64,000 nt of DNA from Narcine bancroftii. Taxonomy: Eukaryota. Positions within the stretch are counted from its first letter, which is position 1. The number at the start of each line of letters is the position of its first letter. The stretch is taken from the NCBI RefSeq assembly GCF_036971445.1, contig NC_091473.1, positions 255,316,001-255,380,000 of the forward strand. Reading direction: 5' to 3'. The notes below the pieces were generated by a model, which worked only from the letters and a program-made list of their open reading frames with translations, was not told the origin of the DNA and searched no databases. Both the position numbers and the translations under genes were made by a program. Positions 55,051 to 58,479 of this stretch are shown one piece after another.

Positions 55051-56512
55051 ACATTAGGGTGCACTGGACCTCAGCATCTGCAAATTCCAGATGGGGGTGG
55101 ATCGGTTGCAGTTTCTGGCCATGTTCTTTGATGGGGTGGTAGAGGACACGGGTGTGGCAGGTGATGGGGTCGTCTGGGTAAGTGACTGCAGTGTGATCAG
55201 TCAATGGAAACACAGCAGTCCTTGTACCACAAAACCCAAGTGATTTCCAAAACCTCTGTCAAATGTCTTCATTCAACAGTCCCATGTAATGTCTTATCCC
55301 AGGGATACTTAAAAGAACTGTACTGATGCAAAATGGCCCAATGCATCAAGTTCAAGTTTATTGTCACATGTACCGAGGTACAGTGAGGAAGTTCATTTTG
55401 CAAGTAATCTAACTGGATAACCCATTCACAGTACAGCAGTAAAAACACAGGACTGAGTGAAACATGAAAGTCTGCAGACACCGTGGTTGAAATAAAAACA
55501 CAATACTGGAGAAACTCAGCAGGTTGTTCTTTATAGAGCAAAGATAAAGGTACAGAACCAATGCTTCAGGCTTGAGCCCTTCGTCAAGGTCTGTAAAAAT
55601 GTTAGCGGGCGCCCAAGCAAAAATACAGAGTGCAGAGTTACGGAGAGAGATCAGTTGGAACAAAGAAAAGGCAGCATTCATTCTGGAGTCTAACAGTGGG
55701 AAAGAAACTGTCCTTGTATCTGGTTGTGTGGTCTGACACAGGGGAATCTTTGACCTGACAGGAGGAGGGTGAAGAGAAGGTGGCTGGCGGGGGAATGGGG
55801 GAAGAGTCCTTTAATGTGATGACTGCTTTTCTAAGGGAGCAGGTGGAATACATCGAGAAGACTGGGTGTCAGGCAGCATCGAGGGAGTGCAGGAGGCAGC
55901 ACTGATGCAGTTGTCAATGTGGTAACAGTTGGAGTTGTACTGGAGTAGGTATGAAACAAGGATCGTTTCACATAGCCAACAAAAGGGCAGGTATGGCTGT
56001 GGCCTAGGGTCATTTAACGGACAGGCACATGATGCAAGTAAAATGGAGTGTTATGGGTGTGAGGGAAGGGTTAGGTTCGGTTTATATAGGTCAGCACATC
56101 ATAGGCTGAAGGGCATGTATTTTGCTGGAATGTTCTGTGCACCTCTGAAAACATTACCAGACCAAGTGAAGGGAGGAAAGTTTAGGGGAGACATCAGGGG
56201 TAAGTATTTTTTACATAGAGAGTCGTTGGGTCTGGAATGCCTTGACTGGGGTGGTAGTGGAGGCTGAAACATTAGGGGCACTTAAGAAACTCTAAGGCAA
56301 ATGGATGCAAGAAAAATAGAGGGTTATTGATGTGAGGCAGGGAAGGTTTCGTTTGTTGAGTAGGTTAACATAGGTCAGCATAACATCATGGGCTGAAGGG
56401 CTAGTACTATGCTGGAATGTGTTATTTTCTATACACAAGGCTACACTTTGGTTCTGCAGACAGTGAGATGAGCCAAAAAAGTGGTTGCTAGGACACATAA
56501 AAAGTTTGCAGG

Positions 56513-57481
56513 TGTAGTGAACTGGGATTCACTAGAAGTGTCCTATACTGATAACTGATCCCGCCTCCAGGCCCCTCCCCCCAGGGGCCGATATATAACC
56601 CTGATTTCCTGCCTAAACCCTGAATCCCCCTGAAGCCTGTTCATGAACCCTACCTGTGTTGTAAGCTAATAAAAGTGTTAGTTCTCCCTCCAGTTGAGTG
56701 TGAGCTTTTATCTATGCTACCATTTTATTAGCTTATAACACAGGTAGGGTTCATGAACAGGCTTCTGAGGGGGTTCAGGGTTTAGGCAGGAAACCAGGGT
56801 TATATACGGGCTCCCAGGGGAGGAGTTGGGTGGGGGGACCAGTTGTCAGTGCAGGACACTTCTAGTGAATCCCAGTTCACTACATTTATCCCTTCCTTCA
56901 GAATTAAGGGTCTGTGGATGGAGAGAACAAAGATCAGAGGCCGGTAATAGACACAGAAGAGAAATATTTATGATACTATTTACAGATTCAGGTGGTCCGG
57001 GGATCTGGAGATCCTGTTGGAGCACCTTAGCACCAGGGGGCCTTGGGCTCCTTGAGTCTCCTGGTCCACCTGTGATGGAAGGGTAGTGGGCTGGGGCTCA
57101 TTTCCGACAATAGAGGTGGGGTTCACTCTTCTCCTGAACTGGATTCCCTGAGGCCCTGGGCGGGTGGGGCGGGGGGGTTGGGGAAAAAGAGCTAGGTAAT
57201 GGAGGTAATGGATCCTCTGTTCCAGCGGGTGCCAGATCCCTGATGGAGACGGTGTCCTCCCTGCCATCCAGGTACTCAACGTAGGCTTACGTGGGGTTGG
57301 CATGGAGCAATTTCACCCTTTCCACCAGGGAGTTGGTCTTGCTTCTACCCGTATATAACCCTGATTTCGTGCCTAAACCCTGAACCCCTCTGAAGCCTGT
57401 TCATGAACCCAACCTATGTTGTAAGCTAATAAAAGCGTTAGTTCTCCCTCCAGTCGAGTGTGAGCTTTTATCCACACTACA
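56513..57481 (-). mobile_element. Internally deleted Ty3/Gypsy LTR retrotransposon with inverted, triplicated LTR sequence
   Basis: GCAGG TSD 56508-56512 and 57482-57486; TG...CA ends; minus-strand integrase C-terminus VERVKLLHANPT*AYVEYLDGREDTVSIRDLAP; PPT at 56885-56900. Confidence 0.85.
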
Positions 57482-58479
57482 GCAGGTAAAACCAACAAGT
57501 AGTTAAGAAGGTAAATGGCATGTTGATCTTTCTGGCAAAGAGGTTGGAGTTTAGGAGCAGGGAGGCTTTGTTCCAGTGGCACGAGGTGTTGGTGAGACCA
57601 CACATGGAGTGCTGGACAGAATGCAACAGGAGGCAGTCGAGAGGAGACTCACCAGGCACTGAGGGAAAGGAAGAACCACGACCAACCACAAGGCACTTCT
57701 CCTGCTTCTTTAAATTTTAAATTTAGACCTACAGCACGGTTACAGGGCTTTCCGTGCTGCCCAATTACACCCTATTAACCTATACCCCCCCCCCCACATA
57801 TGTTTTGAACAGTGAAAAGAAACCAGAGCCTCTGGGGAAAACCCACGTAGACACGGGGAGAACGTAGAAACTCCTTACAGACAGCGTGGGATTCGAACCC
57901 CTGTCCCAATAGTTGGCGCTGTAACACCGTTGCGTTAACCAACCGCGCTGCTTCTTTGGATTGTTGCTAAGCATTGTATTTTTTAAAACTTTTTTTTAAC
58001 CTTCTAATGGGAGCAATTGACATCTCAGCTGATGCAACTACATGCTACAGTTACAAGGGAAGGGAAGAACAAATTCTATGCTTTGTGTGTGTGATAAGGA
58101 CTGATTGTGAACAGATAAACTGAGGTCTCCTGTCTGAATCCTGACCAACGAAGAGGGTATTGAACAAAAAGTCAACACAGCCATGGTGGTCAAGTGTGCT
58201 GAGCTGCAGCCAGCTGGCCCTCAACACCTCAACATTTCCCCATCAGGGTGGATAACCGACCTTGTCCCGCACACGGCATTCTGTGCGGGACCGCCCTGTG
58301 GATGGCTCCTGAACAATGGAGGGAGGTGCATTACAAAATGAAGTTGCAGTTTATTTCCATTACAACAATGAAAACTTCTGATTACATCCAAATTACAATT
58401 GTAAGCCTAGAGCAGCAGAAGGCCACTCACACCCTCCAGCCTAGCCCACTGTTCAACATCCATCTTCGCACTTAATGCT

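What the first reader, a model, noticed from the sequence alone, without database searches (positions are those of the whole stretch)
56513..57481. Gypsy element with palindromic 3' LTR and a reverse-oriented terminal repeat
Seen: one insertion (GCAGG TSD, TG...CA ends, inside a CR1 fragment) carries the LTR-like unit three times. There is a full copy L at 56513-56722 (TATA-like and AATAAA on +), an immediately adjacent inverted copy of its first 162 bp (56723-56884, a 162-bp-arm hairpin with a 48-nt loop), and the right part of L again on + at 57348-57481. The integrase remnant and PPT are on the minus strand, and the PPT abuts the inverted copy. In pol sense the order is rc(L) - internal - PPT - L(part) - rc(L). 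The junction reads TGGTAGCA, which resembles a PBS start. Established: normal Gypsy elements have two direct LTRs in pol orientation. Inference: either a one-off inversion or template switch, or a family-level architecture with a non-standard strand-transfer mechanism reminiscent of DIRS terminal structures. Transcribed copies could form long dsRNA.
Basis: partly seen in the sequence, partly recalled or inferred. Interest (0 to 1): 0.7.

Follow-up and report, generated by a model that had tools for sequence, protein, structure and literature searches.

The report
Fold-back fossil of self-priming retrotransposon
This hairpin-shaped jumping-gene remnant is a single miscopied insertion, not a new element design; it likely arose because its family carries, where a tRNA primer normally binds, a stretch that pairs with its own end-repeat, which likely lets the family prime its own copying and sometimes fold back on itself.

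Summary
The structure is real, but it is not a family architecture. Its right-hand junction occurs once in the genome, and relatives have ordinary direct LTRs. The LTR is not reversed; the inverted part is the integrase-PPT-LTR piece. TGGTAGCA is only the LTR end read backwards.

The cause is family-wide. Right after the 5' LTR, ordinary copies carry no tRNA site but about 16 bases complementary to their own LTR's poly(A)-signal region. 29 of 34 relatives from other organisms keep such a pairing with different letters (0 of 170 control windows), and none of 29 intact polyproteins has a chromodomain. This points to Tf1-like self-priming outside Tf1/sushi. The scan noted this clade before on other DNA, including this genome.

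New here: the same LTR-end/fold-back junction recurs at 8 loci against 305 ordinary junctions, plus one more found by BLAST, each with a different outer shape. Most likely the plus-strand cDNA end annealed to an LTR arm instead of its proper target, copied backwards, jumped back, and was integrated. A rearrangement after insertion is the main rival. No RNA evidence was obtained.

The parts
56508..56512 (+). Left target-site duplication (GCAGG)
56513..56721 (+). Complete 5'-type LTR in normal orientation; last base substituted relative to ordinary copies; TATATAA at 56592
56659..56674 (+). LTR arm (L147-162) ending in the AATAAA hexamer plus one A; complementary to the family's PBS; predicted self-primer
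   Evidence: priming role inferred
56722..56738 (+). One-base spacer and PBS-equivalent: the same letters that follow the 5' LTR in ordinary copies; here they run on into inverted LTR instead of gag (junction 1)
56723..56884 (-). Inverted copy of L1-162 (a 3'-LTR piece, U3 and R up to the poly(A) signal); forms the 162-bp arm with a 48-nt loop
56885..56899 (-). Polypurine tract
56900..57347 (-). 3' end of the integrase gene and short 3' leader; 80-84% to family copies
57348..57481 (+). Right part of the LTR (about L76 to the U5 end); its left edge is junction 2, unique in the genome, with at most 2 bases of microhomology
57482..57486 (+). Right target-site duplication (GCAGG), followed by an old repeat fragment (CR1-like by recall)

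Best explanation
This is one old Gypsy insertion whose plus-strand cDNA likely made its second jump to the wrong place, because the family's primer-binding site is the complement of a stretch in its own LTR, which likely serves as a self-primer instead of a tRNA. Shown: ordinary copies read LTR, one base, then about 16 bases complementary to L147-162; the window has the same letters and then continues as inverted LTR, PPT and integrase. Inferred, normal cycle: the R arm pairs with the PBS in the RNA, is cut just after the poly(A) hexamer (by RNase H, as in Tf1) and primes the minus strand; the same duplex would hide the 5' poly(A) signal. Inferred, this copy: (1) PPT-primed plus strand copies LTR and PBS; (2) its 3' end anneals to a plus-sense LTR arm on a template holding the genome's 3' end (second RNA or another plus strand), which has the same letters as the proper acceptor; (3) it copies back through U3, PPT and 463 bases; (4) it jumps to minus-strand DNA near L76 and finishes at the U5 end; (5) integrase inserts the product, both outer ends being normal. 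The result is dead: no gag, no pol, no copies.
For: Junction 1 equals the ordinary LTR-spacer-PBS junction (158 exact pattern matches, control 0; 28 of the 30 fetched continue into gag). In 34 own-genome 5' LTRs the median pairing is 14.5 of 16 bases, loop 46-50 in 32 of 34. Relatives: 29 of 34 have a perfect inverted repeat of 10 or more bases, 0 of 170 control windows; 19 of 21 families pair at 11 or more of 13 positions, pairs 4-13 each show 2-4 pair types, 0 of 21 start with TGG. The fold-back junction recurs: 8 real loci of 9 matches against 305 ordinary ones at the same stringency, plus L084. In L084, L085, L086 and L091 the inverted copy stops at the U3 end, the 5' end of plus-strand DNA; L084 adds 7 bases resembling the PPT complement before a 6-base duplication, L085 has a perfect 5-base TSD. 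Tf1 cDNA often keeps a single-stranded PBS 3' end that anneals to homologous sites, and PPT remnants (PMC11042837, passages). The three window copies are equally diverged over L80-144 (61, 60, 60 of 65), and left and right share a rare base at L92 (3 of 67 family copies) that the inverted copy lacks.
Against: No RNA, cDNA or enzyme data: self-priming rests on sequence geometry and covariation only. The different-template argument rests on one site. LTR dating has no power here: identity within elements (median 0.854, 8 pairs) equals that between elements (0.856). Step 4 has at most 2 bases of microhomology. L088 and L090 are complex inversions with 8-9-base microhomologies that genomic template switching explains as well. 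TSDs are imperfect in L091 and not evident in L086 and L215. If the TATA box at L80 sets the start site, the arm lies about 35 bases inside the RNA, unlike Tf1, and how the plus strand normally stops at the PBS end is unexplained.
Confidence: 0.6

Rival explanations
1. An ordinary full-length element inserted first; later a replication or repair template switch at the 16-base inverted repeat copied the 3' LTR, PPT and integrase end backwards, then returned near L76, deleting gag-pol and keeping the TSD.
For: Two switches on one integrated element give exactly this order and keep the TSD (sequence logic). L085 can be read as a simple flip of the loop between the arms; L088 and L090 show microhomology-bounded inversions.
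Against: It predicts that the inverted and right copies come from one LTR: they are no closer (60 of 65) than the other pairs, and the rare L92 base is shared by left and right instead (one site). It does not explain why four sister loci stop at the U3 end.
Confidence: 0.22
2. The primer is the 3' end of an element RNA cut just after the poly(A) hexamer, and the plus strand simply read through this long RNA primer (R, U3, PPT, integrase end) before jumping back.
For: The window reads, in coding sense, IN-PPT-L1-162, one base, then the reverse LTR from its U5 end: the exact order of such a primer joined to minus-strand DNA. The arm ends in A(A/T)TAAA in 15 of 19 families, a sequence near the RNA's 3' end.
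Against: A switch within the 16 shared bases gives the same sequence, so the window cannot tell them apart. Stops at the U3 end in L084, L085, L086 and L091 fit a plus-strand DNA template better than an RNA that runs on into the PPT and integrase. I know no precedent (recall).
Confidence: 0.12
3. A family-level architecture with split inverted terminal repeats, replicating like DIRS elements.
For: Junction 1 recurs at 9 loci.
Against: Junction 2 is unique; the outer shapes of the 9 loci all differ; 305 ordinary junctions; DDE integrase, TG...CA ends and a 5-base TSD.
Confidence: 0.02
4. A second LTR of the family inserted antisense into an LTR (nesting), as at L002.
For: L002 shows an antisense solo LTR inside a 3' LTR three bases from the same position, with its own 5-base duplication.
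Against: The window has no internal duplication, no continuation of the interrupted LTR on the far side, keeps the ordinary one-base spacer, and has one TSD around the whole.
Confidence: 0.02
5. Assembly artefact (false palindrome).
For: No listed contig bridges junction 1 or 2 with 31 bases on each side.
Against: The arms differ at 19 of 143 aligned positions, where a false palindrome would be near-identical; an 86-base contig matches the inverted arm letter for letter at the same depth (7.6) as a contig over the right flank (one sample, possibly the assembly's own).
Confidence: 0.02

Closest known systems
Tf1/Tf2/Tj1 and the Tf1/sushi chromoviruses (PMC10085805, PMC4600332: passages)
   Same: Ty3/Gypsy order of domains; PBS complementary to the element's own LTR RNA, not to a tRNA; a second duplex beside the predicted cut in many families.
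   Different: No chromodomain in 29 of 29 intact relatives. The arm ends in the poly(A) hexamer, 24-66 bases before the PBS, and may lie inside the RNA rather than at its 5' end. Priming is untested here.
Integrase-independent Tf1 and HIV-1 insertion at PBS homology (PMC11042837: passages)
   Same: A single-stranded PBS copy at a cDNA 3' end anneals to a homologous site and fixes a junction there.
   Different: Here the homologous site is the element's own LTR arm in antisense, giving a hairpin, and the window product has integrase-type ends and a TSD.
Tcn1 (Gypsy) and TAR/Houba/Osr-1 (copia) plant lineages (PMC6317226: passages)
   Same: Self-priming predicted from sequence alone, as here; shows that it arose more than once.
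   Different: Other lineages and hosts; the passages read mention no overlap with the poly(A) signal and no fold-back products.
Mag-lineage and other non-chromoviral animal Gypsy clades (PMC3286476, PMC6238403: passages)
   Same: About 4.2 kb, short LTRs, single gag-pol frame, 5-base TSD, wide spread in animals; one relative is labelled K02A2.6 by its source.
   Different: Mosquito Mag elements have tRNA-Leu, -Ser or -Arg sites; this clade has none. Clade placement against named references could not be tested.
DIRS elements (recalled)
   Same: Inverted repeat sequence near the ends that can fold back.
   Different: DDE integrase, PPT, TG...CA ends and TSD; the inverted piece is not shared by the family.
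HIV-1 5' poly(A) hairpin (recalled)
   Same: A hairpin that covers AAUAAA in the 5' LTR.
   Different: Here the partner strand is the PBS itself, present only after the 5' LTR.

Membership tests
Ty3/Gypsy LTR retrotransposons | PR-RT-RNaseH-integrase order | tested here: met
   Family copies L038/L049: RVT_1, RT_RNaseH, rve in this order; intact relatives likewise; best PDB matches Ty3 RT. The window itself keeps only the integrase end.
Ty3/Gypsy LTR retrotransposons | Two direct LTRs with TG...CA, PPT, short TSD | tested here: met
   11 of 20 stretches hold direct LTR pairs; window ends and TSD.
tRNA-primed Gypsy elements | PBS beginning TGG, complementary to a tRNA 3' end | tested here: not met
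   0 of 21 families have TGG at the PBS start; the letters vary between families. Half-tRNA primers were not compared with a tRNA set.
Tf1/sushi group | Chromodomain at the integrase C-terminus | tested here: not met
   0 of 29 members match a Chromo family at E 0.01; none in the Pfam lists of 120 relatives.
Tf1/sushi group | PBS complementary to the element's own LTR RNA | tested here: met
   29 of 34 loci, 0 of 170 controls; 19 of 21 families.
Tf1/sushi group | Self-primer at the very 5' end of the mRNA | tested here: inconclusive
   No start-site data. TATAWA upstream of the arm in only 2 of 19 LTRs, 62 and 70 bases before it, which would put the start about 30-40 bases upstream of the arm.
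Tf1/sushi group | Three-duplex 'pretzel' around the primer | tested here: inconclusive
   10 of 19 loops fold a short local hairpin from the first base after the arm (no shuffle control); the full pretzel was not tested.
Tf1/sushi group | RNase H cleavage that frees the primer | not testable with these tools
   Needs an enzyme assay or cDNA ends.
Tf1/sushi group | RT phylogeny within the chromoviruses | not tested
   No named reference sequences were reachable; chromodomain hits in the genome gave no RT nearby.
DIRS elements | Tyrosine recombinase instead of DDE integrase; no TSD (recalled) | tested here: not met
   rve integrase; 5-base TSD.
DIRS elements | Inverted or split terminal repeats shared by the family (recalled) | tested here: not met
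   Junction 2 unique; 305 ordinary junctions against 8 fold-backs.
Mag lineage (A, B, C/SURL) | RT/RNaseH clustering with Mag, SURL, Gulliver | not testable with these tools
   Short motif searches in the readable supplements of PMC6238403 and PMC8556966 found nothing; their alignment files could not be read.

The most novel reading that the evidence does not exclude
This animal Gypsy clade primes reverse transcription with the 3' end of its own genomic RNA, cut at the poly(A) signal and paired to the PBS, and the window is a direct DNA copy of that primer left attached: a third way to start minus-strand synthesis, neither tRNA nor Tf1's 5' leader, with one duplex both silencing the 5' poly(A) signal and defining the primer.
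Probability: 0.12. Interest if true: 0.8.

Novelty: new variant of a known kind. Interest (0 to 1): 0.5.

Why it matters
The insertion itself is a dead accident. Its value is as a record: about 1 in 40 LTR-PBS junctions of this family is a fold-back at the same base, which indicates that the PBS-LTR pairing acted in living cells on DNA or RNA, not only on paper. That supports tRNA-free priming in a widespread non-chromodomain Gypsy clade of animals and shows a built-in cost: the primer's own sequence is a decoy for the second strand jump. The pairing also covers the poly(A) signal only at the 5' LTR, a simple answer to how short LTRs avoid early polyadenylation. Annotation tools that require a tRNA site would miss such families, and the 370-base palindromes could be mistaken for MITEs.

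Tried and rejected
TGGTAGCA as a tRNA site: rejected, it is the LTR end. L002 as a second copy of the architecture: rejected, nested solo LTR with its own duplication. Reading a transcription start from where the inverted copies stop (L114 in L089 and L090): rejected; L088 and L090 stop at 8-9-base microhomologies with an internal site, and L089 is bounded by other repeats. Dating the three copies by LTR identity: no power (one search's within-element list was empty through a de-duplication error and was redone). Reads: only contigs; no RNA holder listed; no listed piece bridges either internal junction, and the bins over the left flank and junction 2 had no exact cover, which proves nothing. 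Empty-site search with the left flank found only the window. IMG/VR held no relative. One search's automatic LTR ends were wrong or cut for several contigs; the gag-anchored test replaced it. A chromovirus outgroup from the same genome was not found. Clade naming through supplements failed (two .fas files, one .pptx, scanned PDFs and two further files unread, which may bear on the clade name). Two Tf1 papers were not held. Ten paper searches showed no report of self-priming in a non-chromodomain animal Gypsy clade or of such fold-back insertions; Repbase, GyDB and most subscription papers are outside the library, and I recall, unverified, that some Repbase Gypsy entries mention self-priming.

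Full report
Observation. The hairpin is far beyond chance (z -25). Its arms differ at 19 of 143 aligned positions, which argues against a false palindrome. Public contigs neither confirmed nor denied the internal junctions.

The family. A search of the window's genome scored 40 of 7083 candidates and fetched 30 loci. 28 of the 29 besides the window have an ordinary integrase-PPT-LTR end; the other, L002, is an antisense solo LTR nested in a 3' LTR with its own duplication. 11 of 20 longer stretches hold two direct LTRs 3.4-4.3 kb apart. RT, RNase H and DDE integrase domains lie in Gypsy order. The closest named proteins are from rays and catsharks, with relatives at 52-60% in corals, insects, crustaceans, molluscs and tunicates, so the host is probably a cartilaginous fish (inference). 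The outer LTRs of the window are therefore in normal orientation on +, and the inner piece is inverted. Junction 2 occurs once in the genome. There is no family architecture.

What makes the hairpin. A pattern for junction 1 unexpectedly matched 158 places, control 0. 28 of the 30 fetched were ordinary 5' LTRs running into gag. So in this family the letters after the 5' LTR are the reverse complement of L147-162, the stretch ending in AATAAA plus A. In 34 own-genome copies the median pairing is 14.5 of 16 and the loop 46-50 bases in 32; one copy folds at z -2.8. The window has these same letters and then continues as inverted LTR instead of gag. TGGTAGCA is the LTR end and spacer read backwards, with one substitution.

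The pairing is clade-wide. An alignment of 29 intact relatives fetched 88 loci from metagenome and genome-bin contigs, which I read as eukaryote-derived. 39 had the gag start matched; 5 were dropped for having under 130 bases upstream. Of 34, 29 have a perfect inverted repeat of 10 or more bases upstream of gag and 26 of 13 or more; 0 of 170 control windows reach 10. Grouped with the own family into 21 families, 19 pair at 11 or more of 13 positions when anchored just after the LTR's CA; the two misses (L117, L194) appear to lack a 5' LTR beside gag (my reading). Pairs 4-13 each show 2-4 different pair types, 0 of 21 begin with TGG, and 15 of 19 arms end in AATAAA or ATTAAA. The families were not weighted by relatedness. 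10 of 19 loops fold a small hairpin from the first base after the arm, without a control. A second family in this genome shows the same pairing with other letters. None of the 29 proteins has a chromodomain, the mark of Tf1/sushi (PMC10085805, passages). Every LTR element needs a primer at this place (established); the only complement found is the element's own R sequence, so self-priming is the best reading. It works like Tf1 but is not filed as Tf1/sushi. After these tests I looked up earlier notes: e1-7857539, e1-8039920 and e1-9879776 (this genome) had reached the same clade-level view; they are not independent support.

The fold-back recurs. At equal stringency, 9 places match the fold-back junction and 305 the ordinary one. 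One of the 9 is an ordinary LTR, leaving 8 with the window, about 2.6%; L084 was found by BLAST only. Their outer shapes differ. L084 and L091 are plain palindromes with a U3 end on both sides; L084 adds 7 bases like the PPT complement before a 6-base duplication; L091's duplication is imperfect. L085 runs from L148 to the U3 end with a perfect TSD. L086 lies within a deleted element without a clear TSD. L088 and L090 go on into inverted gag at 8-9-base microhomologies. L089 is a fragment between other repeats. L215 is a solo LTR with a 20-30-base extension. The counts are lower bounds for a decayed family.

Mechanism. The plus strand ends in a copy of the PBS and must anneal to the minus strand's end. 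In a self-primed element every plus-sense LTR arm has the same letters as that acceptor. Annealing to its own arm gives the plain palindromes, stopping at the U3 end. Annealing to a template that holds the genome's 3' end gives the window, where copying ran through PPT and 463 bases and then returned to L76 with at most 2 bases of homology. Tf1 cDNA is known to keep single-stranded PBS ends that anneal to homologous sites (PMC11042837, passages). The three window copies are equally diverged over L80-144 (61, 60, 60 of 65), so the event is about as old as the insertion; left and right share a rare base at L92 (3 of 67) that the inverted copy lacks, one site in favour of a second template. Against: no RNA or enzyme data, LTR dating has no power in this burst-like family, and a template switch in the chromosome gives the same order. 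I put 0.6 on an error during reverse transcription, 0.22 on a later rearrangement, 0.12 on read-through of a long 3' RNA primer.

Literature. Self-priming is shown for Tf1 and predicted for Tf1/sushi, Tcn1 and TAR (PMC4600332, PMC10085805, PMC6317226; passages only). Mosquito Mag elements use tRNAs (PMC3286476, passages). PMC3601003, PMC3587641 and PMC6238403 (passages) and the readable supplements of PMC6238403 and PMC8556966 (word searches; main text of the latter not read) gave nothing on this point. Ten searches found no report of it; Repbase and GyDB were not searchable. Features of DIRS, CR1 and the HIV-1 poly(A) hairpin are recalled.

Verdict. A real, single, dead rearrangement; the DIRS-like family idea fails. 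It is worth attention as one of a small recurrent class of fold-back insertions that support tRNA-free priming in a widespread animal Gypsy clade. New variant of a known kind; interest 0.5.

Noticed in passing
L002 2121-2310 (G000:C1, near 150.27 Mb): A solo LTR of this family inserted antisense into the 3' LTR of another copy just after the poly(A) signal, with its own 5-base duplication, three bases from the fold-back junction position.
   Followed up: partly
L002 3170-3809, minus strand: A short, internally deleted copy of a second Gypsy family whose PBS also pairs with its own LTR poly(A) region, with different letters.
   Followed up: partly
L084 1337-1694 and L091 1338-1690: About 360-base palindromes made of one LTR and its inverted first 162 bases, U3 end on both sides; they look like MITEs but are LTR-derived.
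   Followed up: yes
L114-L199 LTRs: A small hairpin, often RCCT...AGGY, starts at the first base after the arm in 10 of 19 LTRs; it may mark the cut site as the side duplexes do in Tf1. Families whose arm lacks a canonical hexamer have one downstream in 2 of 4 cases.
   Followed up: partly
L205 7281-7607 (G000:C1, near 425.96 Mb): A second head-to-head LTR junction at the other end of the L090 element: 3' LTR followed by an inverted LTR piece and inverted pol.
   Followed up: no
L193-L199: Gypsy retrotransposons sit in contigs of bacterial genome bins, probably host DNA carried into the bins.
   Followed up: no
window 56079-56133 and 56363-56420: Two short direct repeats about 285 bases apart, 83-87% alike, probably 3' pieces of two LINE or SINE copies.
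   Followed up: no
window 57710-57950: A high-copy piece by contig depth with tRNA-like letters on the minus strand, probably a SINE.
   Followed up: no
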